A DNA stretch of 64,000 bases from a bacterium (GTDB lineage: Bacteria; Patescibacteriota; Microgenomatia; Daviesbacterales; UBA10151). The translations under genes were made by a program, and so were the position numbers. Location: NCBI GenBank assembly GCA_021786315.1, contig JAJYNN010000002.1, positions 545,494 through 609,493 on the forward strand, in the 5' to 3' direction. The number at the start of each line of letters is the position of its first letter. The first letter of the stretch is position 1. Under the pieces are notes generated by a model. That model was not told where the DNA came from. It did no database searches and saw only the letters and a list, made by a program, of their open reading frames with translations. Shown here in pieces: positions 15,092 to 53,473 of the stretch.

Positions 15092-16069
15092 ATGGAAGAT
15101 AACCTGCCCAAATCTGATAATCAATTTTGGTATGAAAATCAGCCCAACCATAATGAACCTCTTCAACCACAACCAGAACCTGCTCCTGCTGGTCCTCCAA
15201 TTCAAATAACAGAGAATAAGAAATACTCAGAGAAAAATGACCCGCCGATGGTAGATGTTAAAGTGACCAATCCTGTCTCCTACTTTAAAAAGTGGGTTAA
15301 ACATCTTTTAGGTAATGAGGGTATTGATATCGGTTTCAAATTTAAAGTTAAACCCTTAACCGCCATAGCTTTAATGGTTGCCTTGGCTGTTTCTTTTGGC
15401 ACTGGTTATGGAACTGGATTAAACGCCGCTGCCGGAGTTTTATTCCCCAACTCCTCCCCGCTTTTACACAGAACCGTGATGTACCAAGGAAATTTGCAAA
15501 AGGCAGGTGACAAATATCTTCTAATCCTTCCCAATTCAGATACTTATACTTTAAAACCCAAATCCAATACTAATATTAACTTTCAAAATTTAACTGATGG
15601 CCCGGTTTTAGTTAAAGGAAACTTAACCAGGGAAGCGTTTGTGATTGAACCCTCAGAAGTTATATCTTTAGGTGGTTCAGCCCCTGAGCCGCAAGCTACC
15701 CTTACCCCAACTAACTCTTCCATCTCTAATCCCACCGATTTCCCTAGTCTTTACCCCAGCCTGACTTGGGAAGTAACTCAAGAAAAAGTTTTAATATTTA
15801 CTTCGGGAAAAAGAAAGATCGAACAAAATGGTGTCTACCTGGAATCTGCTCAGGTACCTACTCTTCCTCAAGATTTCTTGAATTACTATACCAATGAGCT
15901 ACAAACCAAAGGTTTTGAGGAAACCTTAAATTCCAAAGATCCGGAAGGAACCACAATCACCTTTGCCAAAAATGACCTCTACTTAACCTTCGGCATCAAA
16001 AACATCTTTAAAGGCTCAGGCGACACCCGCCAACTCTCCGGCTACAAAGCCTTCATAGAACATAACTGA
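15092..16069 (+). CDS. Pro-rich membrane-anchored hypothetical protein (paralog A of 26482..27273)
   Basis: The core DPPMVDVKVTNPVSYFKKWVKHLLGNEGIDIGFKFKVKPLTAIALMVALAVSFGTGY is shared with the island-borne paralog. Confidence 0.5.
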   Translation: MEDNLPKSDNQFWYENQPNHNEPLQPQPEPAPAGPPIQITENKKYSEKNDPPMVDVKVTNPVSYFKKWVKHLLGNEGIDIGFKFKVKPLTAIALMVALAVSFGTGYGTGLNAAAGVLFPNSSPLLHRTVMYQGNLQKAGDKYLLILPNSDTYTLKPKSNTNINFQNLTDGPVLVKGNLTREAFVIEPSEVISLGGSAPEPQATLTPTNSSISNPTDFPSLYPSLTWEVTQEKVLIFTSGKRKIEQNGVYLESAQVPTLPQDFLNYYTNELQTKGFEETLNSKDPEGTTITFAKNDLYLTFGIKNIFKGSGDTRQLSGYKAFIEHN

Positions 16070-16084
16070 TCTCCACGCAGGGCG

Positions 16085-16702
16085 TTGCCTTGCGTAGGCT
16101 CAGTTAACAACATATGGTATTATTCCCCCATGGCTGAAAGATCAATATTAGGAATAACAGAAGAAAGAGTTAATAGAGCTGAAGACATTGTAGAAGAAAC
16201 TACCGATATCGAAAGAACCGACGATATGTTTAGGTTTATTAGAGGTGTAAACAAAAGGATATCCCGGGAACAAAGAGAACTTTATCTTAATTTAAAAACC
16301 GCCAAGGAAAGATTTCAAGTTGGTTCAGCACTCGCTTATGGATATGCAGCTGCAGTAACTTATGAAATGCTTCCTGATGAAGTAAGAAAAATTGAACTCA
16401 CTCAGGATCAAGTGGAGACTTCAACCAAGAGCCTACTTGATTCAAACCAAGATGAAAATGGATGCTTTGATTGGTATTTGGACAAATTAATAGCCGACTC
16501 TCCTTATTATATTAACTGGTTAATAGATACACTTGAAGATATTGAAGACCCAGAAGAAAAGCGTGATTTTACCTATGGTAGCGTTCTAGTCACACTTCCT
16601 TTTTATCAAAGAGGCGAGGCGTTTATCTTAGCCAATCAAATATGGTATAGACAAGACAGACCTCTCCTTACCTTACTCGAAGTTGAACTTGTACCACAAT
16701 AA
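16085..16702 (+). CDS. hypothetical protein (acidic)
   Basis: 205-aa ORF. No recognisable domain. Confidence 0.35.
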   Translation: MPCVGSVNNIWYYSPMAERSILGITEERVNRAEDIVEETTDIERTDDMFRFIRGVNKRISREQRELYLNLKTAKERFQVGSALAYGYAAAVTYEMLPDEVRKIELTQDQVETSTKSLLDSNQDENGCFDWYLDKLIADSPYYINWLIDTLEDIEDPEEKRDFTYGSVLVTLPFYQRGEAFILANQIWYRQDRPLLTLLEVELVPQ

Positions 16703-16810
16703 CAACACTATTTTCTCAACCCTACTGGCCTTCAGGATTATTTTTTGTTAAAATTACCACTACGGCGCGTTCGTCATAGTGCGCAAGCGCCAGACGAACT
16801 ACCTTGAAAA

Positions 16811-18406
16811 CTAAATATAGATGGCGCGTTCGTCTAGAGGCCTAGGACACTGGGTTTTCATCCCAGGAATCGCGGGTTCGAATCCCGCACGCGCTACTGA
16901 GAGGGATTGTAAGAAGGTTGTGTTTGATTTCCTCTGCGCGGGTGGGGGCGCGCAGAGCTCTCTAAAGCCCTGATTGTAGTCTACGGAAAGTTGCCGATTC
17001 AATAAAAAGAAGTTCGAGCCGACAGTTTTTGCTCCTATGCTTAAATCGGAGCATGTATTTTTTGCGCGCGCGATTTTTGCGCACGAAAGTGCGCTTCCGA
17101 CCCACTCTCTCATAGGTTCGAGCCAACTCGAACCGTTTTGTCTTATTCTCTCCAAATCTTCCTGAATTTTAAGTTTTTGTTCAAAAACTTCGTTCTTTTT
17201 ACTTTTATAAGTTTCACCATCTATTACCTGATCCAAGAAACTATCAAGTAACAAATTGAGCTTTTTATCTAAAGTTTCCAGCTCGTTTTTTAGGGAGATT
17301 ATATTTTCCTCAATGAACTTTTGCTCCTCAACTTCATCCCGATCCATCCATTTATACCAATCATGAGCCCAACTTTCGGGAATAGACACATCAGAAACAA
17401 TCTTTCTTACTTGTAGTTCTAAATCTTCTTGAGAAATATATTTTTGAGAACAAGGTTTAATTTTCTTAGTGCATCTATAGTAAATAAAGGTTTGTTTATT
17501 ACCATTTTTATATTTTTTAGTATGAGTTTCGGTAGTAATAGCCGCACCGCACTCTCCGCACCTCATCAAACCTCTAAAAGCAAAATCATGGCCATTTTTC
17601 CTTGGTCTTTCAATTCTTTTTATTTCTTGTTGAGCAGAATCAAATAGTTTTTTAGAGATAAATGTTTTATGAGAGCCCTGATAATACTCACCGTTATACT
17701 TTAAAATCCCAATATAAAATCTGTTGGATAGCATTTTCTTTATTTGGTTTATATGTAAAGGTTTTTTGTTTATGGTTGTACTTACCCAACCTCGAGTTAA
17801 CCCTAATTTGTGAAGATAGAGGGATATTTCCTTGTAAGATTTACCTCCCTCGGCAAAAAGTTCAAAGGCCTTTTTAATTGCTAAAGAAGTTTCCGGATCT
17901 ACTTGAACAGTTTTTGTATTCGAGTCGTTTTTATACCCGAAAGGTGCTTTCATTGGCCAAACTCCATTGCGAAGTTTTTGCCTTAGCCCACGTTTTACAT
18001 TTTCTGATAAGTTGTCGACATAATATTTGGATTGGCCAAAGGCAATATTTAGCATAAATTTTCCCTGTGGAGTATTTTCAAACCAGAAGGTAGGGAATTT
18101 AAGGTTTAGAAGATTACCGGTATCCAAGAGGTAAATTATTTGGCCGCCGTCAATTGAGTTACGAGCTAATCTATCGGGATGCCAGGCAATAATACCTTGT
18201 GCCTGTCCTTTCTCGATCTTTTTTATTACCTCTGCGAATTTTTCTCTTCCGGGGAGTTTAGCGGTTTTTGACTCTGTTATAAATTCTTTGATTTCTAAGT
18301 TCTCTCTTTTGGCAAATTCTTGAAGCTCAGCAATTTGAGCCTCAATAGAAAGGACTTGTCTATCCTTCTCATCTGTTGATTTTCGGCAGTATGCTATATA
18401 TTTCAT
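16811..18406 (-). CDS. large serine recombinase (resolvase/invertase catalytic domain + recombinase domain + Zn-ribbon + coiled coil)
   Basis: N-terminal YCRKSTDEKDRQVLSIEAQ (Y-x-R-x-S motif), GIIAWHPDRLARN, a Cys4 ribbon CGECG...YYRC, and a coiled-coil tail. The frame has no stop until 16811, so it reads through IR1-left into the tRNA-Glu antisense. The true 3' end is uncertain. Confidence 0.8.
   Translation of the reverse strand: MKYIAYCRKSTDEKDRQVLSIEAQIAELQEFAKRENLEIKEFITESKTAKLPGREKFAEVIKKIEKGQAQGIIAWHPDRLARNSIDGGQIIYLLDTGNLLNLKFPTFWFENTPQGKFMLNIAFGQSKYYVDNLSENVKRGLRQKLRNGVWPMKAPFGYKNDSNTKTVQVDPETSLAIKKAFELFAEGGKSYKEISLYLHKLGLTRGWVSTTINKKPLHINQIKKMLSNRFYIGILKYNGEYYQGSHKTFISKKLFDSAQQEIKRIERPRKNGHDFAFRGLMRCGECGAAITTETHTKKYKNGNKQTFIYYRCTKKIKPCSQKYISQEDLELQVRKIVSDVSIPESWAHDWYKWMDRDEVEEQKFIEENIISLKNELETLDKKLNLLLDSFLDQVIDGETYKSKKNEVFEQKLKIQEDLERIRQNGSSWLEPMREWVGSALSCAKIARAKNTCSDLSIGAKTVGSNFFLLNRQLSVDYNQGFRELCAPPPAQRKSNTTFLQSLSVARAGFEPAIPGMKTQCPRPLDERAIYI
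16823..16896 (+). tRNA. tRNA-Glu (anticodon UUC)
   Basis: GGCGCGTTCGTCTAGAGGCCTAGGACACTGGGTTTTCATCCCAGGAATCGCGGGTTCGAATCCCGCACGCGCTA. D-arm TTCGTCTAGAGGCC is typical of tRNA-Glu. Anticodon loop TTTTCAT. Confidence 0.9.
16894..16996. repeat. IR1-left: 103-bp perfect inverted repeat (partner 18490..18592)
   Basis: Exact reverse-complement match to 18490-18592, verified base by base. Overlaps the last 3 nt of tRNA-Glu. Confidence 0.9.
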
Positions 18407-18489
18407 GGCAGTTTATCTTTAGGGGAAAAGTTCTTTTAGCGACAGCGTTTCCCAGAAATTTTTGCGTGTCTTCTTACTATCTTTCTTTA

Positions 18490-18592
18490 CGGCAACTTTC
18501 CGTAGACTACAATCAGGGCTTTAGAGAGCTCTGCGCGCCCCCACCCGCGCAGAGGAAATCAAACACAACCTTCTTACAATCCCTCTCAGTAG
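18490..18592. repeat. IR1-right: 103-bp perfect inverted repeat (partner 16894..16996)
   Basis: Exact reverse complement of 16894-16996. Lies between the recombinase start (18406) and IR2. Confidence 0.9.
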
Positions 18593-18703
18593 TACGGTAT
18601 CAACAAATTCGAACCTATTTCAAATCGACGTATGCATCGGTCGGTCGGTAGAAGCCCCTCCGCTTCGCGTCGGGGCCTTCTGATCTTTAAGCTCGGCCTT
18701 CGG
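18589..18703. repeat. IR2-left: 115-bp perfect inverted repeat (partner 28385..28499)
   Basis: Exact reverse complement of 28385-28499. Abuts IR1-right, sharing 4 nt. Confidence 0.9.
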
Positions 18704-18764
18704 TCGAAGCTCTGAAACTGTCGGTTCCGAAAACGCAAAAATTTCAAAGAACTTTTCCAAAAAA

Positions 18765-21700
18765 TTATGCACTAAGTTGTATGTATGGATAATCCTTGTA
18801 AAGATTCTCTGCCTGTTCATATACCTTATCAACCATCAAGTCCACCTCTGCAAATGAAATATTATTCCTTAATAAGACTAACCTCACATCTGCTCTTACT
18901 CGAGCTTTAATAATTTCATGGTTAGTCCAGTCAATTGCTATATCTGCCCTTATAGCATGTATAATTTCTTTCACAATCCTCTTTAGATTACTATCTTTTA
19001 AAGACTTCTTACCCAGTGATAAGGCATCATAAAAAGCTAATTCCTCTACTGTTAATCCAATCTCCTTGCCAACTTCACTTGCTTGTCTAATTTCTCTAGC
19101 CAGTTCTAATAATTTATCTATCACTTTAGATGAATTGATAATATTGTTTTCATATTCCTCAATGATTTCTTCTAATTTATTAAGGAGAGTGTCATACCTT
19201 AAAATATTTGTTCTTCTGCGCATTTTTAATTCATCTTTTAACAGTTTGTTTATTGCCTCAATTGTTAGATTCTTAAATCTAGATTTCTTAATATCTTCCA
19301 GGAATCTTTCATCCAATATAGAAATATCAGGTTCCTCTCTCCCATTTTGAGAAAATATATCTATTACACCCTCAGCGACTATATTTTTTGAGATTAGATC
19401 TTTAATCGCGGTTTCTGTTTCATTACTTATATAGATTGGGTCTACAGTAGTGTTTTTAATGATAATTTTTCTAACTCCTTCGAAAAATTCTAGTTCTTCC
19501 CGAATATTATTTGCCGCTTTATGTGGCATTACTAAAGAGAAAAATTTATATAGTCTGCTGGAAAGGCTTAAGTATTGGTCTTTTTGTGCTGTATTTATAC
19601 CACCAGATACCGGATCCGTTAAAATTCCATTAACCGCTCTTGCAAAAAGTGACGCCAGTTCGCTACTAGGTAACTTATGCCAGTTGGTATATTCAATCCC
19701 TTCAAAAAATTTCTTTACTTTTTTATAGTGTTCTAACATTTTCGCGACCATCTCCTCTATTGGAACCATGGCTTGTTTTTGAACATCCGAAGTGTAGATT
19801 GCTAAAGCTTTCTTTAAGTTATCAGCAACACCAATATAATCAACAATTAACCCACCCTCTTTATCTTTATAGCGTCTGTTAACCCTAGCAATTGCCTGCA
19901 TCAAAGTATGACCTTCAAGAGGTTTATCTAAATAGAGTGTATTTAAATGAGGAACATCAAAGCCTGTAAGCCACATATCACAAACGATAACAATTTTTAA
20001 AGGATCTTCAGGATTTTTGAATCTTTTCTCAATTTCCCTATTATCTAACTCTTCTTGAATTTGTCCCTGAAAATCCTTACTGCCAGAAACAACAACAGCA
20101 ATTTCCGGTGCACCCTTCATTGTTTTGATAATTTCGTACATTCTTGCAGCAATTCTTCTACTCATAGTCACAAGTAATGCCTTTCCTTTATATCTTCTAT
20201 TTATAAAATGAAAAACGACATCATAAGCCACTTTTTGTAATCGATCCTCCGCTCCAATAGCGCTCTCCAAAGTAGCCCATTTATTCCTTAAGACGTCTTT
20301 TGTATCTATTGGATGCTCAGCTAATAATTGATCAAAGTCCAAATCAATGTATTTGTTGAAAACATGTAGAGGGGTTAATCGTCCTTCATAGTAGATTGGC
20401 ACCGTTGTTCCGTCCTCAACTGCTTTATCAATTGGATATTCACTAAATTCCTCACCAAAGACCATTTGTGTATTTCTGTTTTGCAAAGAGATTGGAGTAC
20501 CAGTAATACCCATAAAAGAGGCATTTGGTAAAACATCTCTAACATTGCCTGCAAATGTGGCATATTGCGATCTGTGCGCTTCGTCTGCAATCACGATAAT
20601 ATTTTCTCTTTCCGATAAAGGTTCTCTCGTATCAAACTTCTGAATAGTAGTAAATAGAACCTCGGATCCAGCTCCTTTTAGCTGATTAATTAATCCAGCG
20701 ATACTGCCTGCTTGTTTTACAGTGGGGTAACCTGTTCGCAAGAAAGTTTTATACAGCTGCTGATCCAAATCATTACGGTCTGTTAAAAACAGTATTGTCG
20801 GGCTTTTTAGTTGCTCCGCTCTTTTAGCTTTATTAACATAGAAAACCATAGATAAAGATTTTCCGCTTCCTTGTGTATGCCAAAAAACTCCAATCTTTTT
20901 ATTACTAACGATAGCTTGTAAAGTTCTTCCAATCGCTTTGTTCACGCCAAAATATTGATGATACATCGCCATCTTCTTGGTAAATTTAGAAGCATCTTTC
21001 TCAGCGTCTGCCTCAAAGACAATAAAGTTCTCAATTAGATCAAGTAAATGATTTTTATTAAACATTCCCTTTATCAAAAGTTCTAATTCTGACTTCTCTA
21101 GATTTTTTTCGTTCTCACTCTCTATTCCTTTCCAAACATTAAAAAAGTCGAAGGAAGACGAAATAGTTCCATGCTTCGCCTTCATTAGATCGCTGATAAC
21201 AAGTACCTGGTTATACAAAAATATCTTTGGAATTTCTTTTTTATACAAGTCGTGAATTTGTGAGTATGCGTCGGCAATTGTCACCTTTCCATCAACGGGA
21301 TTTTTTACTTCAAATAATCCCACGGGAATTCCGTTAATAAAAACGACCACGTCTGGAATTCTTATAGAAGATCCTTGAACAGAAAATTGGTTAACTACTA
21401 AAAACTCGTTGTTATCCGGATTTCTATAATCAATAATATTTACGATCTCACCTTTAAGATCATTATTTTTGTCTTTGACTTCTACTCTTATCCCTTCCGT
21501 CAACCACTTAAAAACTTCTTTGTTTCCTAACTCTAAATCCTGATGATCATATTTAGTGATCTTATCTACAACCTCGTTAACTTTTTCATCTGGAATATCT
21601 GGATTTATTCTTTTTAAAGATCTTTTTAGTCGCGTCTCTAGAACAACCTCTCTATAATCACTACGTTCTTGAAAAGTTCCGCCAGGGGAGATATCAGGAC

Positions 21701-21782
21701 CATATGCATGTTCATAACCCAATTCATTGAGCCATTCTAATACTGGTTTTTCTGCTAAATTATTTTCATTAAGTTTTGACAT
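18765..21782 (-). CDS. hsdR: type I restriction enzyme R subunit HsdR
   Basis: HTQGSGKSLSMVFYV (Walker A), IVIADEAHRSQY (DEAH box), helicase C motifs. 1005 aa. Confidence 0.95.
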   Translation of the reverse strand: MSKLNENNLAEKPVLEWLNELGYEHAYGPDISPGGTFQERSDYREVVLETRLKRSLKRINPDIPDEKVNEVVDKITKYDHQDLELGNKEVFKWLTEGIRVEVKDKNNDLKGEIVNIIDYRNPDNNEFLVVNQFSVQGSSIRIPDVVVFINGIPVGLFEVKNPVDGKVTIADAYSQIHDLYKKEIPKIFLYNQVLVISDLMKAKHGTISSSFDFFNVWKGIESENEKNLEKSELELLIKGMFNKNHLLDLIENFIVFEADAEKDASKFTKKMAMYHQYFGVNKAIGRTLQAIVSNKKIGVFWHTQGSGKSLSMVFYVNKAKRAEQLKSPTILFLTDRNDLDQQLYKTFLRTGYPTVKQAGSIAGLINQLKGAGSEVLFTTIQKFDTREPLSERENIIVIADEAHRSQYATFAGNVRDVLPNASFMGITGTPISLQNRNTQMVFGEEFSEYPIDKAVEDGTTVPIYYEGRLTPLHVFNKYIDLDFDQLLAEHPIDTKDVLRNKWATLESAIGAEDRLQKVAYDVVFHFINRRYKGKALLVTMSRRIAARMYEIIKTMKGAPEIAVVVSGSKDFQGQIQEELDNREIEKRFKNPEDPLKIVIVCDMWLTGFDVPHLNTLYLDKPLEGHTLMQAIARVNRRYKDKEGGLIVDYIGVADNLKKALAIYTSDVQKQAMVPIEEMVAKMLEHYKKVKKFFEGIEYTNWHKLPSSELASLFARAVNGILTDPVSGGINTAQKDQYLSLSSRLYKFFSLVMPHKAANNIREELEFFEGVRKIIIKNTTVDPIYISNETETAIKDLISKNIVAEGVIDIFSQNGREEPDISILDERFLEDIKKSRFKNLTIEAINKLLKDELKMRRRTNILRYDTLLNKLEEIIEEYENNIINSSKVIDKLLELAREIRQASEVGKEIGLTVEELAFYDALSLGKKSLKDSNLKRIVKEIIHAIRADIAIDWTNHEIIKARVRADVRLVLLRNNISFAEVDLMVDKVYEQAENLYKDYPYIQLSA

Positions 21783-21783
21783 A

Positions 21784-22602
21784 TTAGTGATCTTCCAATT
21801 GTAATTTTTGTTGAGGTTCTTTATATGACTCTATATCAACTACTTTAATTTTGGGAACCTCATAATCACTATTTCTTATTACTATCCCTCTCAACTGAAC
21901 TTTTTCCATTTCAAGATATTCGTGAAATTTCGTCGTACTCTTTTCTTTATCCAAAGGAGAAACATTTAAGGTGTACCCTTTATAAATAAATCCTAAATCA
22001 TTTAATTTTTTATTTATCCGTGTAATTTCTCCATCTATAACAACTTCCTCTCCGTTTCTAAGTTCCGGTAATATGGGATCTTCTTGTTTATCTACATAAA
22101 ATTGATACTTATTATCGCAAGTAATCTTGAATGACTTATCTCCTATAACGATTTCCGCATGTTCGTTGTATTCGCTAACTGGCCTCGCCATTTTTTCTGC
22201 ACCTTTTCTGAAATCATAACTTCTACATAATTCAAAGACCTTCTTGTCGGAAATGGCGTCTAACAATTCTTTTGTGGGATTCTTCAAGCTATTCGATCCA
22301 AATCTATCGATTATTACAAAGGCTGATACTATTATTGTGGCTACATAACTTATTCGCTCTACGGTTTGCCAGGGGTGCTTCTGAACATATATAAGCTTTG
22401 TTCTAACCGAACCATTTTCAATTGGAAGAACGTATATATTATCGTAAGCCAGCATTCCTATTTTTGCTGCTTCTTTTAAACATGTCTCCAAGCCAATAAT
22501 TGCTTCTCCTAACTCTTTAGCTGGCATTGCACTTTTTTCCGCAGAATACACTAAGAATATTTCCGATGAAGAGGGATCGACTTGGAATAGTTGTTGATTC
22601 AT
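21784..22602 (-). CDS. hypothetical protein embedded between hsdS and hsdR (no recognisable domain)
   Basis: 272-aa ORF, translationally coupled on both sides (1-nt gaps) inside the hsdM-hsdS-X-hsdR operon. Confidence 0.5.
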   Translation of the reverse strand: MNQQLFQVDPSSSEIFLVYSAEKSAMPAKELGEAIIGLETCLKEAAKIGMLAYDNIYVLPIENGSVRTKLIYVQKHPWQTVERISYVATIIVSAFVIIDRFGSNSLKNPTKELLDAISDKKVFELCRSYDFRKGAEKMARPVSEYNEHAEIVIGDKSFKITCDNKYQFYVDKQEDPILPELRNGEEVVIDGEITRINKKLNDLGFIYKGYTLNVSPLDKEKSTTKFHEYLEMEKVQLRGIVIRNSDYEVPKIKVVDIESYKEPQQKLQLEDH

Positions 22603-23745
22603 CTAAATTGTTATTTCTCCTTTCATTAATTTTGGTAAAAGCAAATCACGCAAAGCAGTTAATTTTTGATTTTCCAGCTTTAAACTGATCATAGTTCTGT
22701 AAGTAACATCAAAAATATTTATATTTTTATTGTCAGATATAAAAATATTTTGTTCTTTTAAATGCTCTTTTTTAATATGTCCCATGGTCGTAGCTTTGGC
22801 ACCCGCCTGTTGTTGAAAAAATTTTAGCTTCGACTTAAGAAGAAAATATATAAACCCTTTGGAAAAATCACTTGTTGGAACTACATTAAATATATGCTGG
22901 TTTAATATCGCCTTATCTTTATCCCAGATATACAAATCTACTGTACCAGACCAAGAGAATAGCAAGTCACCGTTTTGGATGTAATATTTATCGTCCACCT
23001 TTTTGTCTATCCATTCAGTATTATCTGAAACTCCTCTGTTTAAGTCAGCAATTTTTATTAGCGGAAGTCCTTTCTTCATTCTGTTTGTAATTTTTCCAAA
23101 AGCCCCGCCATTAATATAATTCGCTATATCCAACAATGAATATTTAGTACCTTCATTAGAGGAGAACCATTTTTTAAAAAATGTCTGGGCCATTTCTTCT
23201 AAAGTTTTTGAAATTTTATTGTTCACTTCAATCTTTTCATCTAATGCAGCTAAAATTCTGGAAATTTTTTTTTGTATAGACAATGGAGGGGTTGGAACTA
23301 AAACATTCTCGAAAGTACCAAGATTAATATTGTCTTGTGCGCTACCGATGGCATAACTTTGAATATTTCTCTTAAGATATTGCAGAGAATATAGAATAAA
23401 ATCTGGATCGCTTTTTTCTTCGTCTGCTAAAAAACCGATTACACTATCAGGGAAACACGCCGGAAAAGTTAGTTTTCCTAAATCTGCAATATTTGCTGCG
23501 ATCGTTATACAAATTGTATTAACGGGCCACATCCTACTTTGTTTTAAACCATTTTCACTGTATGTTTGTGAATATGAAGTTATTCGACCACCTGAGGCTT
23601 TCACATCACCTGTTTGTATAAATGGGTACGGACCACCATACAATATCCTTGCGTCTCTTGGCCGATGTCGAGATCTTCCTCTATTAAGTTCACCTAACTG
23701 AGTTAATTTTTTTAATTGCCAATTATCTGGAATCTGATTTTGCAT
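22603..23745 (-). CDS. hsdS: type I restriction-modification specificity subunit HsdS (two target-recognition domains)
   Basis: 380 aa. Duplicated TRD/conserved-helix architecture. Positioned between hsdM and hsdR. Confidence 0.85.
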   Translation of the reverse strand: MQNQIPDNWQLKKLTQLGELNRGRSRHRPRDARILYGGPYPFIQTGDVKASGGRITSYSQTYSENGLKQSRMWPVNTICITIAANIADLGKLTFPACFPDSVIGFLADEEKSDPDFILYSLQYLKRNIQSYAIGSAQDNINLGTFENVLVPTPPLSIQKKISRILAALDEKIEVNNKISKTLEEMAQTFFKKWFSSNEGTKYSLLDIANYINGGAFGKITNRMKKGLPLIKIADLNRGVSDNTEWIDKKVDDKYYIQNGDLLFSWSGTVDLYIWDKDKAILNQHIFNVVPTSDFSKGFIYFLLKSKLKFFQQQAGAKATTMGHIKKEHLKEQNIFISDNKNINIFDVTYRTMISLKLENQKLTALRDLLLPKLMKGEITI

Positions 23746-23746
23746 A

Positions 23747-25537
23747 TTAATAATTAATCTTTTTTAGATTTTCTAAAATTTCCTTTTCTAATTTTTCAGA
23801 TTTTGTGAAATATTGTTTTAGTTCTGATTCTAATTCTTTCATCTTTTCTTCGAACGGAACTCCATCCTCCTCTTCATCCTCCACTCCAACAAAACGACCC
23901 GGTGTTAAAACATAACCACTTTTTACAATTTCCTCTTTTGTTGTTGCCTTACAAAATCCGGAAACATCTTTATATTCTCCATTTTCGCTCCTCCAAGCCC
24001 TCACAGTATTAGCAATTAGCTGAACTTGTTCTTCATTAAAAGTCACTTGTTTTCGAGAGATTTGAGTAAAATATTTTGAGTCTCGAGCATCAATGAAAAG
24101 AGTTTCTCCTTTTCTGTTTCTGAATCTGCCGGATTCTTTATTTTTTGTGACAAACCATAACGACACTGGAAGGGAAACATTAAAAAATAGTTTTGGAGGA
24201 CAAGCAATTATTACATCAATCAGATCATCCTCAATCATTCTTTTTCTGATTTCACCTTCCTTGCCGGAAACAGCCAACGCTCCATTAGCCATTACAAATC
24301 CAGCTATTCCATTTGGGGTTAAGTGGTTTATAAAATGTTGAATCCACATAAAGTTAGCATTTCCTTTCGGAGGAGTGCCATAAACTAATCTCGGATCTTT
24401 TTCAGAAAGACGATCTGAATCCCATTCTGCATTAAATGGAGGATTAGCCAGGATAAAATCGACTTTAAGTTCTCTGAACTTGTCATCATAGTAAGAATTA
24501 CCAAATTGGATATTTCCAAAAACTCCACGGATAGCAAGATTCATCTTGCAGAGCTTTAAAGTTGTTTGATTACTTTCTTGGCCGAATATGGATATTTTTG
24601 TCGGATCTTTATGGTGCTCTTGCAAGAATTTGCTGGACTGGACAAACATTCCACCAGACCCACAACATGGGTCTAAAACCCTACTGTTTTCATAAGGTTC
24701 AAGAATTTCAACTAAAAGTTTTACTAGCGAACGAGGTGTATAAAATTCTCCTCCTCTTTTACCCTCAGCATCAGCAAACTGTCCCAAGAAATATTCATAG
24801 ACTCTACCAAGTAAATCTTTCTCTCTATCCTCATCATCGTTGAAATCTATCCGGGAAAAAATATTAATGAGTTCTCCTAAGATTTGACTTTCAAGTGGAA
24901 CGCGAACATAACTCTTTGGCAGAACTCCTGTCAGCTGTTCAGGGTTTTCATTTTCTATAGCTTCCATAGCATCGTCGATATACTTCGCTAAATCTGATAA
25001 GGCAGCTTTGCTTCTCAAATATTCCCATCTGGCGATTTCTGGAATATAAAAGATCCCCTCCTTCTTATACATGTCTTTATCTTCCAAAATCATTTCTCGA
25101 GCAGCGGGGTTAGGGATATAGTATTGCTTGTTTTTGGAATCACTCATCCATTTTTGAAGTTTTTCTCTTCTTTGGTAAAAAGAATCAGAAATATACTTAA
25201 GGAAAATAAGACCTAAAACGACATTCTTGTAATCAGAAGAATCAATATTACCCCTAAGTCTATCTGCAGCTGCCCATAGCTCTTTTTCAAAATGAATATC
25301 TGTTTTAGGTTTACTAGCTAAATCCCGAGCTTCCTTTGCTGTAGCTTTTTGAGTTTGGATAATTCTATCTTTAAAATCCTGAGGAAGAGTATTGTACTTT
25401 AGAAGATATTTTTTACCCTCTGTTCGTGTTTCGATTTCTCCAGCATTAATTTTACCTTGGAGTTGCTTTAAAACAGCCTGACGAGATATACCTAATATCC
25501 TGGCGATATCACTAATTGAGATAAAATTTTCATCCAT
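23747..25537 (-). CDS. hsdM: type I restriction-modification N6-adenine methyltransferase HsdM with extra N-terminal HTH-like domain
   Basis: HsdM_N motif ELWAAADRLRGNIDSSDYKNVVLGLIFLKYISD, SAM motif LDPCCGSGGM, catalytic NPPF (FILANPPFN). The first ~85 aa (ISISDIARILGISRQAVLKQL) are an additional HTH. Confidence 0.95.
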   Translation of the reverse strand: MDENFISISDIARILGISRQAVLKQLQGKINAGEIETRTEGKKYLLKYNTLPQDFKDRIIQTQKATAKEARDLASKPKTDIHFEKELWAAADRLRGNIDSSDYKNVVLGLIFLKYISDSFYQRREKLQKWMSDSKNKQYYIPNPAAREMILEDKDMYKKEGIFYIPEIARWEYLRSKAALSDLAKYIDDAMEAIENENPEQLTGVLPKSYVRVPLESQILGELINIFSRIDFNDDEDREKDLLGRVYEYFLGQFADAEGKRGGEFYTPRSLVKLLVEILEPYENSRVLDPCCGSGGMFVQSSKFLQEHHKDPTKISIFGQESNQTTLKLCKMNLAIRGVFGNIQFGNSYYDDKFRELKVDFILANPPFNAEWDSDRLSEKDPRLVYGTPPKGNANFMWIQHFINHLTPNGIAGFVMANGALAVSGKEGEIRKRMIEDDLIDVIIACPPKLFFNVSLPVSLWFVTKNKESGRFRNRKGETLFIDARDSKYFTQISRKQVTFNEEQVQLIANTVRAWRSENGEYKDVSGFCKATTKEEIVKSGYVLTPGRFVGVEDEEEDGVPFEEKMKELESELKQYFTKSEKLEKEILENLKKINY

Positions 25538-25627
25538 GCCGGAAGCAGTATAGTACTAAAAAATAATTCTGTCAAGTTGTCATCGTGACAACCTTAAATT
25601 AGAAATAATTGCGATACAAGAGTTTCT

Positions 25628-26485
25628 TCAGTAACACTTTTTAGTGCTACTACCCTCTAAATAATAAGACTCTTTTTTAGGATCAAACCGATATGTATTC
25701 TTTTCTTCGGTATCACTTCCATGATCTCCACAAGACCAACCTTGCTCAACCTTCCCTTCAGAATTTGGCAGAAAGTTATCGACCCAGTAGAAAGTTTGAT
25801 CTTTGTTGATTATTGGATAGACAACAGCTTTATTATTGGCCTTACTATATCCCAAGACTAAATGTTCAGTATGTCCACAAGCCAAAGTAAAACCATTTAG
25901 GAGAAACTCATAATAATACCCATCGCCGTTTAAATCCTGAAAATTCATCAAGTCCACATCTGTATACTCGAGTTGTTCTACAGAAGGTTCGCTACCTTCC
26001 AATTTCAAATAAGCCGGATCAGCGTTCATTCTGATATTTTGATAAGCTAAACGGATATTATTGCTTGGAGGTAATGGTTTCCCTGTACTTAAATCTACAT
26101 TAGAGCCCGAACCCGGAATCGAAACATCATTAATAAGTTTGTTGTTTTGTATCAGGGCTAAATGATAGTTACCTTCAATCGCTCTTCCCTCTATGCCGGA
26201 AGCACAAGAAGTATAAGCAGACCATCTGCGGGATGGTTCTAATAATTCGTCTGTTTTAGAGTTTAATACATAGAGCACCAAGTACGATTCAGGAGAAAGA
26301 TTGGGAATTTTCTTATATTCTCGGAGTAATGCTTCTTTGGGAATTAAGTTCTTGATAGAACTGTCGCTAATATTTGTTTTATCGGGTTTATTTATGTTTT
26401 TTGTATCAATTTTTAAAGAGGGAAAATAGAAGAAACCAACAATCAACACAAATGGAATGATAAATAATAACTTTTTTCTGCTCAT
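25628..26485 (-). CDS. secreted/membrane-anchored Cys-containing hypothetical protein
   Basis: N-terminal TM LLFIIPFVLIVGFFYF. No recognisable domain. Confidence 0.4.
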   Translation of the reverse strand: MSRKKLLFIIPFVLIVGFFYFPSLKIDTKNINKPDKTNISDSSIKNLIPKEALLREYKKIPNLSPESYLVLYVLNSKTDELLEPSRRWSAYTSCASGIEGRAIEGNYHLALIQNNKLINDVSIPGSGSNVDLSTGKPLPPSNNIRLAYQNIRMNADPAYLKLEGSEPSVEQLEYTDVDLMNFQDLNGDGYYYEFLLNGFTLACGHTEHLVLGYSKANNKAVVYPIINKDQTFYWVDNFLPNSEGKVEQGWSCGDHGSDTEEKNTYRFDPKKESYYLEGSSTKKCY

Positions 26486-27273
26486 TTATTACTATCAAAA
26501 ATATTTATTTCAGATACATTAATAACATTGGCTTCTCTAGTTAGGTTTCCTTTAACCATTACTTGTTTGTTTATAGAATTGTTGATGGTATTGAGGGCTG
26601 TTTGGGATTTTGGGAGTAGCTTCCATAAAGTTGTATCGGGTAAAGATAAATAGTATTGTCCGTCTTGAGTTTTCTGAATAGTTCCTTGATAGACAATAGC
26701 TCGATGAAGGATAGGGCTTGAGTTAGGGAAAAGAATTCCGGCAGCCGAATTTAGACCAGAGGTATAACCAGTTCCGAAAGAAGCTGCGAGGGCAATCATA
26801 ATAGCTACTGCAGTCATAGGCTTAATTCTAAACTTAAATCCAATATCTATGCCCTCGTTTCCCAAAAGGTGTTTAATCCATTTTTTAAAGTAAGTTACGG
26901 GATTAGTAACTTTCACATCCACCATTGGAGGATCATTATTTTCTGAGTATTTATCATTTTGGGTTACTTGGATTGGAGCAGGGTAAGAGGAATCAGGGTG
27001 ATCAGGGATATTAGGGGAAATTGGAGGATTGGGATTATCAGGGACAGTATAATCACTTTTAATAAAGTGTCCTTGGGCATCTCGCTTTTGGTGTTTTGCT
27101 AATTCACTTTGAACAGGGTCTATTAAGTCAGGAGAAGGATTTGAAGGAATAGGAGGAATGGGGGTATCAGGGAAATTGGGGGGATTCGGGGAAGGAGTTT
27201 GAGCTAATGGTTCGGGTTGAGTTGGTTGTTGAGGGGTAAAGGAATTATTAGGATCAGGCAGTTTGTCATCCAT
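26482..27273 (-). CDS. Pro-rich membrane-anchored hypothetical protein (paralog B of 15092..16069)
   Basis: Shares the DPPMVDVKVTNPVTYFKKWIKHLLGNEGIDIGFKFRIKPMTAVAIMIALAASFGTGY core with the chromosomal paralog. Confidence 0.5.
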   Translation of the reverse strand: MDDKLPDPNNSFTPQQPTQPEPLAQTPSPNPPNFPDTPIPPIPSNPSPDLIDPVQSELAKHQKRDAQGHFIKSDYTVPDNPNPPISPNIPDHPDSSYPAPIQVTQNDKYSENNDPPMVDVKVTNPVTYFKKWIKHLLGNEGIDIGFKFRIKPMTAVAIMIALAASFGTGYTSGLNSAAGILFPNSSPILHRAIVYQGTIQKTQDGQYYLSLPDTTLWKLLPKSQTALNTINNSINKQVMVKGNLTREANVINVSEINIFDSNK

Positions 27274-27339
27274 AAATCCAGTATATCTACTAGATTAGAA
27301 AGGTGCAACTGCAGCGGAAATATACAAAAAGTTATCCAA

Positions 27340-28330
27340 TATATTGTGTATTGACTCGGCTTTCCATACAAGGTGTAAAATTTAATTACTCTCTGCAGTA
27401 GCGGAGGTAGAAGGGAGGGCCATGAATTTGACCCAACTTTTGTACTCCGTGAGTATCTTTGGTAATTGAAACTAGCAAACGGACAAGCAAGGAGGATCCA
27501 AATAACCTTGCTTACTTAATTGTTCAGGGAAGATTACTGACAACACTCTAGCGGAGGCTCACCTTTGTCTTACCTAAAGGTTAAGTGTTGTCTACCGGAA
27601 AATTGGGAGAGAATAACCAATCAAAGCAAACTGAGACGTCGGTTTGGGGAGATATAGGTATTAGGTACTTTTGTAGGTGAGAGGGCCACTCAGTATTCTC
27701 ACTGGGTGGCCTTTTCTTTATTCTCCTTGCAAACTCTTTTCTCTTCTGTGGCGGTTCCGCCGCCCCCGCCCCTTTGGGATAATAACCGTTCAGGAGGGCA
27801 GCACCTTAGAAGAAATCTTTTTGGAATTAGTAGTAAGTAAAATGGGTGCTGCCCGACAATAGCGAGGGCCGAGAAAGCCAAGTCATATTTTAGAAGAACC
27901 GGCCCGAGCCCTCGGAATTAGTGCGAGAAAGTTTCTCGAGAAACTTTCGAGCGGCATGGATGCAAGTAGGGCTAAAAATTGCGGCGGGGGCGATTGCGGA
28001 CAAACCCCCGCAACGGCAGGAGGTATTAGAAAGAAGAAAAGGGTAGGCGAAAAGTACCGAAGGTAACCTTACCCAACGAACTTTTCGCCGAGTTAGATAC
28101 TACCAATACTAGTTCGTAAGGCAACAATATAGGCGAGGCGCCCCCTAGGGCGACCTCTCGCCCAAAAGCGGGGGTGCCGCTACTACTAATTTGGGTGGGT
28201 GGGTTAGTTCAGGATACAAGATTTACTCTTCTTACCCGTTACCGTAGCGGTAACGGTATCCGTAACGGTCCGTTACGGTGATTAGCTTGTCAAAAACCGC
28301 TAAACTCCCCATTCTTAAATATCTTAATAA
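27340..28330 (+). other. ~1 kb GC-rich non-coding region with dense predicted secondary structure (candidate structured ncRNA and/or iteron/ori-like region)
   Basis: No ORF of 62 aa or longer on either strand. GC-rich helices in an AT-rich genome. Several helices only work with G-U pairs on the + strand. Contains a 22-bp perfect palindrome and four ~11-nt CCGTTACGG-type repeats. Confidence 0.3.
27684..27720 (+). terminator. rho-independent terminator-like hairpin inside the non-coding region
   Basis: GGCCACTCAGT-attctc-ACTGGGTGGCC followed by TTTTCTTTA. Confidence 0.5.
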
Positions 28331-28384
28331 TTCTTTAAAAATCGCGCGCTTTTCTGTCTCTTAGCAAAAAATACCAGAGCGAGG

Positions 28385-28499
28385 CCGAAGGCCGAGCTTA
28401 AAGATCAGAAGGCCCCGACGCGAAGCGGAGGGGCTTCTACCGACCGACCGATGCATACGTCGATTTGAAATAGGTTCGAATTTGTTGATACCGTACTAC
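28385..28499. repeat. IR2-right: 115-bp perfect inverted repeat (partner 18589..18703)
   Basis: Exact reverse complement of 18589-18703. Confidence 0.9.
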
Positions 28500-28510
28500 A
28501 AAAGAAAAAG

Positions 28511-28540
28511 TCCTCCCTTCGGGGAGGCTTTTTGTTTTTT
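28511..28540. terminator. bidirectional rho-independent terminator
   Basis: CCTCCC-TTCG-GGGAGG hairpin with a T-run on the + strand (CTTTTTGTTTTTT) and an A-run before it. Insulates the island from the sigma/anti-sigma operon. Confidence 0.65.
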
Positions 28541-28639
28541 AACTGTGATTAGGCAAGAATCTGCGCATCTCGCAGAGCTAAGCAGGTTCGATCAGGCAAA
28601 GCCTGACAACATCTTCGAGCAAAGCGAGAAGTAGTGTTA

Positions 28640-51540: not shown

Positions 51541-51544
51541 CATA

Positions 51545-53385: not shown

Positions 53386-53473
53386 CGAGCAAAGCGAGAA
53401 GACAAAGTGAGAACAACATCTTCGAGCAGAGCGAGAAGTAGTGTTATTCTCACCATCGGCTCTCACAATTTTT

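What the first reader, a model, noticed from the sequence alone, without database searches (positions are those of the whole stretch)
16894..18592. Serine recombinase gene bracketed by perfect 103-bp inverted repeats; its reading frame has no stop until it has read through the repeat and the tRNA
Bases 16894-16996 and 18490-18592 are exact reverse complements, checked base by base. They enclose only the recombinase gene.

The recombinase frame stays open through IR1-left and across the tRNA-Glu antisense strand to 16811. Its last ~60 codons are therefore repeat and tRNA sequence. The mirror ORF 18376-18651 translates the other repeat copy into the same peptide, LSVDYNQGFRELCAPPPAQRKSNTTFLQSLSV.

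Possible explanations:
- a self-contained invertible or transposable recombinase module (IS-like with 103-bp terminal inverted repeats)
- an inversion switch in which flipping changes the recombinase C-terminus or its expression
- a recent rearrangement, or an assembly artefact
Basis: seen in the sequence. Interest (0 to 1): 0.75.

Follow-up and report, generated by a model that had tools for sequence, protein, structure and literature searches.

The report
Mirror-ended recombinase element at tRNA
The perfect 103-base mirror repeat is real: it is one half of a conserved two-compartment mobile element, widespread in ultra-small (CPR/Patescibacteria) bacteria, that parks a recombinase gene and a cargo of defence genes exactly at the end of a tRNA gene, using a site that imitates part of the tRNA.

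Summary
Observation confirmed: 16894-16996 and 18490-18592 are exact reverse complements. They bracket one large serine recombinase (LSR) gene whose frame stays open through the repeat into antisense tRNA-Glu.

It is 115 nt long (18589-18703 / 28385-28499), abuts the first, and brackets a 9.7-kb type I restriction-modification cargo.

Three junctions share the core CTAC: tRNA|b, an inverted a|b, and a|terminator. This is what an integrated LSR element (attL, attR) carrying an extra inverted attP-like copy would look like.

The layout is family-wide. 68 of 80 related loci from many CPR lineages have the recombinase-bracketing repeat, next to tRNAs of 27 anticodon types. Arm 'a' carries a T-loop mimic 4-5 bp further from the crossover than the real T-loop, matching the published attP/attB register shift.

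Near-identical recombinases sit at different tRNAs, so the elements moved recently. The frame is kept stop-free through the arm, yet the arm evolves like a DNA site rather than a protein.

An assembly artefact, a lost stop codon and a stand-alone IS are rejected. A free-flipping switch is unlikely, because orientation is about 95% fixed. It is unresolved why an inverted site copy is kept and what keeps the arms identical. I found no published description.

The parts
16823..16897 (+). tRNA-Glu(UUC), the target. Its T-arm and acceptor 3' strand form the left half (X, attB-type) of junction 1.
   Evidence: ARAGORN; Rfam tRNA 60.7 bits.
16894..16897 (.). Core CTAC at junction 1 (tRNA|b), the inferred crossover region. 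It covers the last acceptor-stem base, the discriminator and the next base.
   Evidence: The same 4 nt are shared by all three junctions. In other loci the shared core is 3-7 nt in 16 of the 19 with IR2; the rest gave 12-23 nt or a cut arm.
16894..16996 (.). IR1 left arm, the 'b' arm next to the tRNA. It encodes recombinase codons 471-504.
   Evidence: Codon arithmetic.
16932..16957 (.). GC-rich hairpin inside arm b: CTCTGCGCG-GGTGGGGG-CGCGCAGAG. The mirror copy lies at 18529-18554.
   Evidence: Read. The hairpin sits at the same position in 26 aligned arms, and all 4 predicted pairs show compensatory changes. In Saccharibacteria the equivalent hairpin is followed by a T-run.
16811..18406 (-). 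Large serine recombinase gene, 531 aa. It has no stop codon of its own; the stop is supplied by antisense tRNA sequence.
17012..17020 (+). T-loop-like DNA motif GTTCGAGCC on the tRNA-sense strand. It is antisense to codons G-S-N (463-465).
   Evidence: The codons GGC TCG AAC occur in 59 of 70 loci. TCG is used for Ser 97% of the time here against 17% across these genes.
17115..17134 (+). Second T-loop-like motif, GGTTCGAGCC, antisense to W-L-E-P. In this clade it is part of a 20-bp palindrome.
   Evidence: TGGCTCGAACC is fixed family-wide. CTC is used for Leu 89% of the time here against 15% overall. The site is also flagged as terminator-like.
18407..18489 (-). 83-nt untranslated stretch between the upstream arm and the recombinase start codon.
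   Evidence: The median distance from arm to start codon across 68 loci is 64.5 nt.
18490..18592 (.). IR1 right arm, the reverse complement of 'b', upstream of the recombinase.
18589..18592 (.). Core GTAG at junction 2. Read on the minus strand, this junction is a|CTAC|b, an intact attP-like site in inverted orientation.
   Evidence: IR1 and IR2 overlap by these 4 nt.
18589..18703 (.). IR2 left arm, the reverse complement of 'a'. It contains the inverted T-loop mimic ATTCGAACC at 18607-18615.
18704..28384 (-). Cargo module with low GC. Genes: hsdR 18765-21782, unknown 21784-22602, hsdS 22603-23745, hsdM 23747-25537, unknown 25628-26485, unknown 26482-27273. All are on the minus strand.
   Evidence: Pfam; ORFs; GC 0.28-0.39 against 0.40-0.46 to the left.
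28385..28499 (.). IR2 right arm, the 'a' arm. It contains the T-loop mimic GGTTCGAAT at 28473-28481, 4 nt further from the core than the real T-loop is in tRNA-Glu.
28496..28499 (.). Core CTAC at junction 3 (a|Y), the right end of the element.
28500..28545 (+). Y, the presumed original sequence downstream of tRNA-Glu. It is an A-run, the hairpin GTCCTCCC-TTCG-GGGAGGC and a T-run, i.e. an intrinsic-terminator shape.
   Evidence: Read. In other loci Y is likewise a terminator or the next tRNA.

Best explanation
The 103-bp repeat is one of two adjacent pairs of long inverted repeats that define an 11.6-kb integrated element (16894-28499). The element belongs to a large, uncharacterised clade of large serine recombinases in CPR/Patescibacteria.

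On the + strand the layout is: tRNA-Glu | CTAC | b - recombinase(-) - b' | GTAG | a' - type I R-M cargo - a | CTAC | original tRNA terminator.

Shown:
- The three junctions are X|b, an inverted a|b, and a|Y, and they share a short core at the discriminator end of the tRNA.
- The same architecture recurs family-wide at tRNAs of at least 27 anticodon types.
- Arm 'a' carries a T-loop mimic 4-5 bp further from the core than the real T-loop.
- Recombinases at least 90% identical sit next to different tRNAs.

Inferred:
- X|b and a|Y are attL and attR. They were made by recombination between an attP (a|b) and an attB, where the attB is the tRNA 3' end plus an arbitrary right half.
- The recombinase's zinc-ribbon domain reads the T-loop motif. 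This would explain why any tRNA gene can serve as a target.
- The mobile form is a circle in which two inverted copies of a|b separate a recombinase module from a cargo module. Integration through the copy at the recombinase's 3' end gives the standard layout.
- A later element can integrate again at tRNA|b, which builds chains of modules.
- The arms also carry a hairpin. In several lineages it is followed by a T-run, so it could replace the displaced tRNA terminator and shield the recombinase gene from incoming transcription.
- The open frame through the arm makes the protein's tail depend on the neighbouring DNA. The tail itself is probably unstructured.

Not explained: what the inverted site copy is for, and how the arms stay identical.
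For: Structure in the window:
- IR1 and IR2 are both perfect and overlap by 4 nt.
- The three junction sequences share CTAC, and Y is terminator-shaped.
- The cargo has lower GC than the flank and encodes a complete type I R-M system.

Family-wide evidence:
- More than 7,600 homologues at E <= 1e-10, named Patescibacteria, Parcubacteria or Microgenomates where a name exists.
- 68 of 80 genome loci have IR1: median length 101.5 nt, 25 perfect and 18 at 97-99.9% identity.
- 49 of those 68 have a convergent tRNA whose 3' end overlaps the arm by 3-8 nt. These tRNAs cover 27 anticodon types.
- 19 loci have IR2 within the 4-kb flank. Cargo there is 0.6-3.7 kb and of varied content.

Site logic:
- The T-loop mimic in 'a' is 4 nt (24 loci) or 5 nt (12 loci) further from the junction than the real T-loop, out of 43 loci scored.
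- This matches the 5-bp shift of the zinc-ribbon-domain motif between attP and attB reported for a Listeria serine integrase (PMC3783163).

Mobility:
- Within clusters of at least 90% identity, the tails read into different tRNAs.
- Related loci keep the arms and the recombinase but differ in cargo.
- Chains occur. L083 reads tRNA-Lys|b2 rec2 b2'|a2' K2 a2|b1 rec1 b1'|a1' R-M cargo. L002 and L087 have the recombinase module between two different 'a' arms.

Enzyme:
- Resolvase, Recombinase and Zn-ribbon domains.
- The AlphaFold2 model has a confident long coiled coil at residues 344-423.
Against: - No circular form and no empty site was found, so excision and integration are inferred from junction logic only.
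- A circle with two identical inverted sites should integrate in either orientation. Yet about 92% of tails read into the tRNA and only 5 of 155 do not. Selection or silencing has to be invoked to explain this.
- Conservative serine recombination does not explain why 75-190-bp arms stay 97-100% identical.
- The right half-site 'b' shows only a weak 3-4-bp dyad with the tRNA side, so the attP is very asymmetric for an LSR.
- Canonical LSRs need a directionality factor for excision, and none is identified here.
- All data are assemblies, mostly MAGs, and nothing is experimental.
Confidence: 0.6

Rival explanations
1. Integron-like docking platform. The recombinase module (b...b') is the resident unit at the tRNA. 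The cargo (a'...a) is a separate cassette whose circular form has a perfectly palindromic attP (a|a'). The cassette is captured at the b'|Y junction and can be exchanged independently.
For: - Each module has its own perfect inverted repeat.
- Related loci share the arms and the recombinase but differ in cargo.
- Cargo size ranges from 0.6 to 9.7 kb, with varied content.
- Modules alternate in chains.
- Only 'a' carries the attP-register motif.
Against: - The recombinase module is never seen without an adjacent 'a' arm. Near-identical recombinases sit at different tRNAs, so the recombinase module itself moves.
- A 230-bp perfect palindrome in a free circle would be unstable in most bacteria.
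- No cargo-only insertion was looked for systematically.
Confidence: 0.2
2. Inversion switch, Hin-like or as in the yeast 2-micron plasmid. The recombinase, or RecA acting on the 103-bp homology, flips 16997-18489. This changes which neighbour drives or opposes recombinase transcription and swaps its C-terminal tail.
For: - The sites are in inverted orientation and the recombinase gene lies inside the segment.
- One relative, L047, has tRNA-Asn|b followed by the 5' end of the recombinase gene. This is opposite to its 91%-identical relative L049.
- 5 of 155 tails read into the reverse complement of 'a'.
- The frame is kept open so the tail depends on the flank.
Against: - Orientation is about 92-95% fixed across independent populations.
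- Three of the five alternative tails (loci L002, L083, L087) resolve into chains with two different 'a' arms, not simple flips. P0185 could not be resolved on its short contig, and in P0014's contigs (L084) the upstream arm is missing.
- Flipping leaves all sequence within 100 bp of each junction unchanged.
- The enzyme is a 531-aa LSR with a coiled coil, not a small invertase.
- Canonical LSRs do not recombine attL with attP.
Confidence: 0.2
3. Self-contained IS-like transposon: the recombinase with 103-bp terminal inverted repeats is the whole mobile element.
For: - Perfect terminal repeats enclose only the recombinase.
- The ORF runs through the end, as in many IS elements.
- There are many copies, often several per genome.
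Against: - There is no direct target duplication; the flanking 4 nt are inverted (CTAC/GTAG).
- Wherever the far side was readable, the module abuts an 'a' arm there. Alignments between copies extend through 'a'.
- Its circle junction would be a 206-bp perfect palindrome.
Confidence: 0.08
4. Assembly artefact, or a recent accidental rearrangement in this one genome.
For: Inverted repeats are a known failure mode of short-read assemblers. Many related contigs break at the arms.
Against: - The same geometry occurs in 68 of 80 loci. These come from SPAdes, MEGAHIT and other assemblies by different groups, including two complete genomes (CP055307.1, CP174360.1).
- Arm position relative to the start codon, the tRNA end and the T-loop mimic is conserved.
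- Some arms are slightly diverged, at 88-97% identity, which an artefact would not produce.
Confidence: 0.01

Closest known systems
Large serine integrases of temperate phages and integrative elements (phiC31, Bxb1, Listeria A118/LI, SPbeta SprA, TnpX/TndX, SCCmec CcrAB)
   Same: - Resolvase, Recombinase and zinc-ribbon domains plus a long coiled coil.
- Junctions have the attL / attP / attR relationship around a very short core.
- A recognition motif lies 4-5 bp further out in the element's site than in the host site, as published for LI integrase.
   Different: - At most 29% identical to any phage integrase. PDB sequences match only the first ~150 residues, weakly.
- The target is the 3' end of tRNA genes of many isotypes, not one specific gene.
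- An additional intact site copy sits in inverted orientation.
- The site arms are duplicated as 75-190-bp near-perfect inverted repeats, whereas known LSR sites are about 40-50 bp.
- The ORF has no stop of its own.
- No directionality factor is evident.
Hin/Gin/Cin/Pin serine DNA invertases (Salmonella H segment)
   Same: The recombinase gene lies inside a segment bounded by inverted recombination sites, as hin does within the H segment (my own knowledge).
   Different: - Those are ~190-aa enzymes with 26-bp sites and a Fis-bound enhancer, and both orientations are common.
- Here the enzyme is a 531-aa LSR with 100-bp arms and nearly fixed orientation.
Yeast 2-micron plasmid (FLP and 599-bp inverted repeats)
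   Same: Two long perfect inverted repeats divide the element into two unique segments, one of which carries the recombinase gene. This matches the inferred circular form here (my own knowledge).
   Different: It uses a tyrosine recombinase, is a eukaryotic plasmid and is never integrated. Its repeats serve copy-number amplification.
tRNA-targeting genomic islands with tyrosine integrases, including tycheposons
   Same: Cargo islands, often carrying defence genes, are inserted at tRNA genes. Tycheposons occasionally use large serine recombinases (27 of 937 elements; bioRxiv 10.1101/2020.12.28.424599).
   Different: Those elements are bounded by direct repeats of the tRNA 3' part and target specific tRNAs. 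The text I read describes no bracketing inverted repeats.
Integrons (intI, attI, attC cassettes)
   Same: A recombinase gene has a capture site immediately upstream, and exchangeable cargo units are bounded by repeats (my own knowledge).
   Different: Integrons use a tyrosine recombinase and single-stranded folded attC substrates, and the platform does not move by itself.

Membership tests
Large serine recombinase (LSR) superfamily | N-terminal resolvase catalytic domain containing the nucleophilic serine | tested here: met
   PF00239 covers residues 4-150, E = 1.8e-22. S10 is invariant in 75 aligned homologues.
Large serine recombinase (LSR) superfamily | Recombinase domain followed by a zinc-ribbon domain with an embedded coiled coil | tested here: met
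   PF07508 covers residues 171-263 and PF13408 covers 277-333. Cysteines C283, C286, C312 and C319 are invariant. The AlphaFold2 model has helices at 344-391 and 397-423 with pLDDT around 85-91.
Serine integrase att-site logic | attL and attR are hybrids of attP and attB joined at a short common core | tested here: met
   X|b, a|b and a|Y share CTAC in the window. They share 3-7 nt in 16 of the 19 other loci with IR2; the other three gave 12-23 nt or a cut arm.
Serine integrase att-site logic | The zinc-ribbon-domain motif lies about 5 bp closer to the centre in attB than in attP | tested here: met
   The T-loop motif is offset by 4 nt in 24 loci and by 5 nt in 12 loci, of 43 scored. The published value is 5 bp (PMC3783163). 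This holds for the left half-site only. That the zinc-ribbon domain binds this motif is inferred.
Serine integrase att-site logic | Each site is an imperfect palindrome of two similar half-sites | tested here: not met
   'a' and 'b' are unrelated in sequence. X|b shows only a 3-4-bp dyad at positions 9-12, no better than with shuffled partners. Y is not conserved.
Serine integrase att-site logic | Unidirectional attP x attB reaction, with excision needing a directionality factor | not testable with these tools
   No biochemistry was possible. No candidate factor was identified, and the two unknown cargo ORFs have no Pfam match.
Hin/Gin-type invertase switch | Small serine recombinase (~190 aa) with a C-terminal helix-turn-helix | tested here: not met
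   The protein is 531 aa with LSR architecture.
Hin/Gin-type invertase switch | Both orientations of the segment occur in populations | tested here: inconclusive
   One flipped relative was found (L047, compared with L049). 5 of 155 tails read into the other flank, and three of those are chains. No read-level data were available.
Insertion sequence with terminal inverted repeats | Terminal inverted repeats flanked by a direct target-site duplication | tested here: not met
   The repeats are present, but the flanking 4 nt are CTAC and GTAG, which are inverted, and they belong to the shared core.
Insertion sequence with terminal inverted repeats | The bracketed unit occurs by itself at different sites | tested here: not met
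   Wherever the upstream flank was readable, it is an 'a' arm with the T-loop mimic. Exceptions have 'a' arms on both sides or no upstream arm at all (L084).
hsdS-shuffling 'epigenetic inverton' of type I R-M systems | Several hsdS genes or fragments separated by inverted repeats within hsdS | tested here: not met
   There is one hsdS (22603-23745). The repeats lie outside the genes, at the ends of the whole R-M block. Compared with PMC7672463.

The most novel reading that the evidence does not exclude
This may be a previously undescribed class of modular mobile element. A large serine recombinase would recognise the universal T-loop/T-arm sequence of tRNA genes through a tRNA-mimicking attP half-site, so it could dock at essentially any tRNA gene.

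The element would keep a second, inverted, intact attP between a recombinase module and a cargo module. That copy would let modules be flipped, exchanged or stacked without a separate directionality factor, like a serine-recombinase counterpart of an integron platform combined with a 2-micron-type inverted-repeat circle.

The stop-less ORF and the DNA-level-fixed T-loop motifs inside the coding sequence would be parts of an extended, res-like recombination or regulatory site.
Probability: 0.3. Interest if true: 0.85.

Novelty: new variant of a known kind. Interest (0 to 1): 0.7.

Why it matters
CPR/Patescibacteria are a large share of bacterial diversity, have tiny genomes, and have almost no characterised mobile elements.

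This recombinase family has thousands of members, often several per genome, and carries defence and other cargo to tRNA loci. It is therefore probably a main route of gene flux and of tRNA-linked rearrangement in these organisms. It may also be one reason their assemblies often end at these loci.

Mechanistically, it offers a natural example of a serine integrase whose target is a generic structural gene feature, the T-arm, rather than one unique sequence. The attP/attB register shift can be read directly from the genomes.

Such enzymes could become integrases with predictable landing sites in any genome. The unexplained features (an inverted spare attP, 100-bp arms kept identical, a stop-less ORF, recognition motifs embedded in coding sequence) are directly testable with purified protein and long reads.

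Tried and rejected
- Exact look-up of the recombinase in the contig index found nothing on record.
- Two metagenome scans returned no match: one for the predicted empty site (tRNA-Glu end joined to the terminator), one for the terminator alone. Precise insertion is therefore inferred, not shown.
- The viral-contig scan returned only two contigs, each with the first 117 residues of a relative and no intact element.
- Rfam found nothing but the tRNA in 16000-19500.
- Promoter and terminator consensus scans were at chance level. I did not use the outward-facing promoter-like match in the arm.
- I tested whether arm 'b' mimics the tRNA T-arm in inverted, attB-register form. Only a 3-4-bp dyad appeared, no better than with shuffled partners, so I dropped that idea.
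- hsdS-inverton reading: rejected, because there is a single hsdS and the repeats lie outside the genes.
- Seven literature searches found no description of this architecture (paper check). The library lacks most subscription journals, so absence is not proof.
- I considered that the rare tails reading into the reverse complement of 'a' were excised circles or simple flips. L002, L083 and L087 show two different 'a' arms, so they are chains. The P0185 contig is too short to tell.
Full report
**1. The observation**

Bases 16894-16996 and 18490-18592 are exact reverse complements: 103 nt, 100% identical, 1493 nt apart. tRNA-Glu(UUC) occupies 16823-16897 on the + strand, so the repeat begins with the last four bases of the tRNA, CTAC.

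The only substantial ORF between the arms is 16811..18406 on the minus strand, 531 aa. Its Pfam domains are Resolvase (residues 4-150), Recombinase (171-263) and Zn_ribbon_recom (277-333), which makes it a large serine recombinase (LSR). Codons 471-504 are arm sequence and codons 505-531 are antisense tRNA. The mirror ORF 18376..18651 contains the same 32-residue peptide.

**2.

A whole-window repeat search found a second perfect inverted repeat, 18589-18703 / 28385-28499: 115 nt, 100% identical, 9681 nt apart. Its left arm overlaps the right arm of the first repeat by the four bases GTAG.

Between its arms lies a block of lower GC. All its genes are on the minus strand:
- hsdR, 18765-21782
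- an unknown ORF
- hsdS, 22603-23745
- hsdM, 23747-25537
- two further unknown ORFs

Call the 99 nt after CTAC 'b' and the 111 nt before CTAC 'a'. The + strand then reads: tRNA-Glu|CTAC|b - recombinase(-) - b'|GTAG|a' - cargo - a|CTAC|Y.

Y (28500-28545) is an A-run, a GC hairpin and a T-run. That is the shape of an intrinsic terminator one would expect right after a tRNA gene.

There are therefore three junctions: X|b, a|b (inverted) and a|Y. X|b and a|Y relate to a|b exactly as attL and attR relate to attP. X|Y, the tRNA followed by its terminator, would be the unoccupied attB.

**3. It is a family trait, not an accident**

The recombinase has more than 7,600 homologues at E <= 1e-10. Where a name exists, it is Patescibacteria, Parcubacteria or Microgenomates.

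I fetched the 80 best loci from one-genome-per-species contigs and searched each against itself. The results:
- 68 of 80 loci have an inverted repeat with one arm a median 64.5 nt upstream of the start codon and the other over the 3' end of the ORF.
- Arm length has a median of 101.5 nt (range 44-138).
- Arm identity is 100% in 25 loci, 97-99.9% in 18, 90-97% in 19 and below 90% in 6.
- In 49 of the 68, ARAGORN finds a convergent tRNA whose 3' end overlaps the outer end of the arm by 3-8 nt. These tRNAs cover 27 anticodon types.
- Most of the remaining loci are cut by contig ends or have a T-arm-like sequence at that position.
- 19 loci show the second repeat pair within the 4-kb flank, abutting the first as in the window.
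- Three-way shared cores are 3-7 nt in 16 of those 19. Typical cores are xCAC, xCCA or CAGCC, i.e. the discriminator or CCA end of the tRNA.
- Cargo in those loci is 0.6-3.7 kb. It varies in content: a methyltransferase plus an inositol monophosphatase, a reverse transcriptase, or a PLD-family gene just beyond the reverse-complemented 'a' motif in a variant locus with no detectable repeats.

The loci come from many laboratories and assemblers and include two complete genomes. An assembly artefact or a private rearrangement is therefore excluded.

**4. How the target is recognised**

In nearly every locus, the sequence outside the upstream arm (the end of 'a') carries a conserved motif. In this window's clade it reads about GAAAT-GGTTCGAAT-TTnTTCGTA. 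This copies the tRNA T-loop GGTTCGAATCC found on the other side.

Measured to the same repeat boundary, the mimic lies 4 nt (24 loci) or 5 nt (12 loci) further out than the genuine T-loop, among 43 loci scored.

[quoted passage not shown] The match supports calling 'a' an attP-type half-site and the tRNA an attB-type half-site. It also explains how one recombinase family can use tRNAs of any isotype.

This is inference from sequence geometry, and binding has not been shown. The right halves do not fit the canonical picture:
- 'b' is unrelated to 'a'.
- Y is not conserved.
- The dyad between the tRNA side and 'b' is only 3-4 bp, no better than with shuffled partners.

**5. Evidence of movement**

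Within protein clusters of at least 90% identity, the part encoded by the arm is the same but the tail beyond it differs: TPPGIEPGLQG, SGAGLEPATSTMST, IPEGLEPSTCRLRAG..., SPEGFEPSTVTLRG.... The same recombinase therefore sits next to different tRNAs.

Related loci align from 'a' through the recombinase to the outer junction and stop there, while the cargo differs.

Chains exist. In L083 the order is tRNA-Lys|b2 rec2(-) b2'|a2' K2 a2|b1 rec1(+) b1'|a1', followed by a type I R-M cargo. In L002 and L087 the recombinase module lies between two different 'a' arms.

Two assumptions would generate all these arrangements:
- The only reaction is a|b recombining with [tRNA end]|[anything].
- The donor is a circle with two inverted a|b copies, and a later element may integrate at the tRNA|b junction of an earlier one.

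I found neither a circle nor an empty site, so this remains a model.

**6. Orientation**

Of 155 complete C-terminal tails, 138 were classed automatically as antisense-tRNA. Five more of the 'other' class are antisense-tRNA by eye. Five read into the reverse complement of 'a', for example ...FLV|NVFDKIRTYFKSVC; the window's mirror ORF reads ...LSV|VRYQQIRTYFKS.

L047 has tRNA-Asn directly followed by b and the 5' end of the recombinase gene, opposite to its 91%-identical relative L049.

The opposite orientation therefore occurs but is rare. Because the arms are symmetric, site-specific recombination cannot set the orientation. Selection is my guess: for instance, convergent tRNA transcription may silence the recombinase, while sense read-through from a tRNA may be harmful. 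This is not shown.

**7. The open reading frame**

In 56 of 58 loci the recombinase frame has no stop anywhere in the arm. Summed over loci, there is 1 in-frame stop against 132 in the other two frames. Homologues are conserved in length to the arm's outer end (R471, L473, F481, L484 and V504 are at least 90% conserved) and diverge immediately after it. The idea of a lost stop codon is refuted.

Yet the arm does not evolve like ordinary coding sequence:
- Among 18 related pairs, substitutions at codon positions 3:1:2 are 2254:579:366 in the gene body but 45:33:33 in the arm.
- The third-position rate in the arm is about 2.6-fold lower than in the body.
- AlphaFold2, run with a 75-sequence alignment, gives pLDDT below 50 for residues 443-463 and for nearly all of 479-531.

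The arm also holds a GC-rich hairpin (16932-16957) that is maintained by compensatory changes. In Saccharibacteria that hairpin is followed by a T-run.

My reading is that the arm is primarily a DNA element: a site plus a hairpin or terminator. Translation is allowed, or required, to run through it, so the protein's last residues report what lies beyond the junction. Why stops are excluded is unexplained.

**8. Recognition-like motifs inside the gene**

Two conserved peptide motifs near the 3' end, WLEP and GSN, are encoded by the same DNA word in two frames: TGG CTC GAA CC and GGC TCG AAC. Both are the reverse complement of GTTCGAGCC, a consensus T-loop.

Codon choice at these positions is fixed across lineages that share only 43-73% protein identity:
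- TCG is used for Ser 97% of the time, against 17% across these genes.
- CTC is used for Leu 89% of the time, against 15% overall.
- AAC is used in all 65 cases with Asn, against 37% overall.

These are DNA-level or RNA-level constraints. They lie roughly 5-25 nt (the commonest spacings) and about 120 nt inside the arm, on the tRNA-sense strand. They may be accessory binding sites, as in a res site, but I did not test this.

**9. Comparison with what is known**

The enzyme is an LSR by every sequence criterion tested. It is far from characterised ones: at most 29% identical to any phage integrase, and PDB sequences match only its catalytic domain, weakly.

The junction logic and the register shift are those of serine integrases. 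The following are not part of that picture:
- generic tRNA targeting
- the spare inverted attP
- 75-190-bp near-identical arms
- the stop-less ORF
- the modular chains

The system resembles several others in single respects but fails their defining features (see the membership table):
- Hin, because the recombinase gene lies inside an inverted-repeat segment.
- The 2-micron plasmid, because two inverted repeats split a circle.
- Integrons, because a recombinase has a capture site upstream of it.

Seven searches of the open-access library found no description of this architecture. Tycheposons use tRNA targets and occasionally LSRs, but the text I read mentions no bracketing inverted repeats.

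**10. Verdict**

It is the visible corner of an 11.6-kb, two-module, tRNA-docked LSR element of a kind that is abundant in CPR bacteria and apparently undescribed.

I rate it a new variant of a known kind, namely serine-integrase integrative elements. Several features have no current explanation. My confidence by level:
- About 0.85 in the architecture and its generality.
- 0.6 in the combined statement that it is an integrated LSR element with attL, inverted attP and attR junctions and T-loop read-out.
- 0.3 or less in any specific account of what the inverted copy and the long identical arms are for.

Noticed in passing
window 28606-28656 and 53387-53462: A 17-nt copy of the tRNA-Glu 3' end (ATCCCCGCACGCGCTAC, 28640-28656) lies 140 nt beyond the element's right end. 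It is preceded by a 37-nt sequence that recurs (95% identical) after tRNA-Thr (53313-53386). There the sequence precedes a 17-nt duplicate of the tRNA-Thr 3' end, only 59 nt downstream of the gene. These look like stubs of another tRNA-targeting element family bounded by direct repeats.
   Followed up: partly
window 16765-16776: GGCGCGTTCGTC, identical to the first 12 nt of tRNA-Glu, occurs 47 nt upstream of the tRNA inside a small inverted-repeat region (16765-16804).
   Followed up: no
window 17012-17020 and 17115-17134; all related loci: The conserved peptide motifs GSN and WLEP of the recombinase are both encoded by GGCTCGAAC, the reverse complement of a T-loop consensus, with synonymous codons fixed family-wide. 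This indicates a DNA- or RNA-level constraint inside the coding sequence. In this clade the second motif forms a 20-bp palindrome, GGTTCGAGCCAACTCGAACC.
   Followed up: partly
proteins P0002, P0003, P0005-P0007, P0010, P0023, P0086; loci L081/L082 positions 1-360: Homologues of about 900 aa are a complete recombinase fused in frame to a second copy that lacks its first ~117 residues. Two viral contigs carry only residues 1-117 followed by unrelated DNA. Codon ~117 is therefore a recurrent breakpoint, possibly a secondary target site inside the recombinase gene. New elements may disrupt resident ones there.
   Followed up: partly
L055, L072, L073, L040, L074 (cargo edges, about 2050-2360 and 3650-3750): In Parcubacteria-type loci, inverted copies of 27-39 bp flank the inner edges of the cargo module. 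They copy recombinase codons ~443-452 (which include the GSN motif region) and ~25-47. The repeat system there is therefore more complex than two simple pairs.
   Followed up: partly
L084-L086 (contigs from three samples): A variant locus with no upstream arm at all. A coding ORF runs to within 34 nt of the recombinase start. The 3' arm and a reverse-complemented 'a' motif are present, followed by a PLD-family nuclease gene.
   Followed up: partly
window 12190-12225, 51360-51433: Short repeats containing GAGCGAAGCGAGAA occur near tRNA-Lys (12434-12506) and tRNA-Gly (51470-51541). They resemble the GAGCAAAGCGAGAAG repeats found after tRNA-Thr and at 28612-28630. This may be a tRNA-associated repeat family in this genome.
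   Followed up: no
loci L003, L006, L012, L030, L059, L066, L078 and others: Many MAG contigs start or end exactly at an arm of these repeats. These elements therefore coincide with many contig ends in the loci fetched.
   Followed up: no
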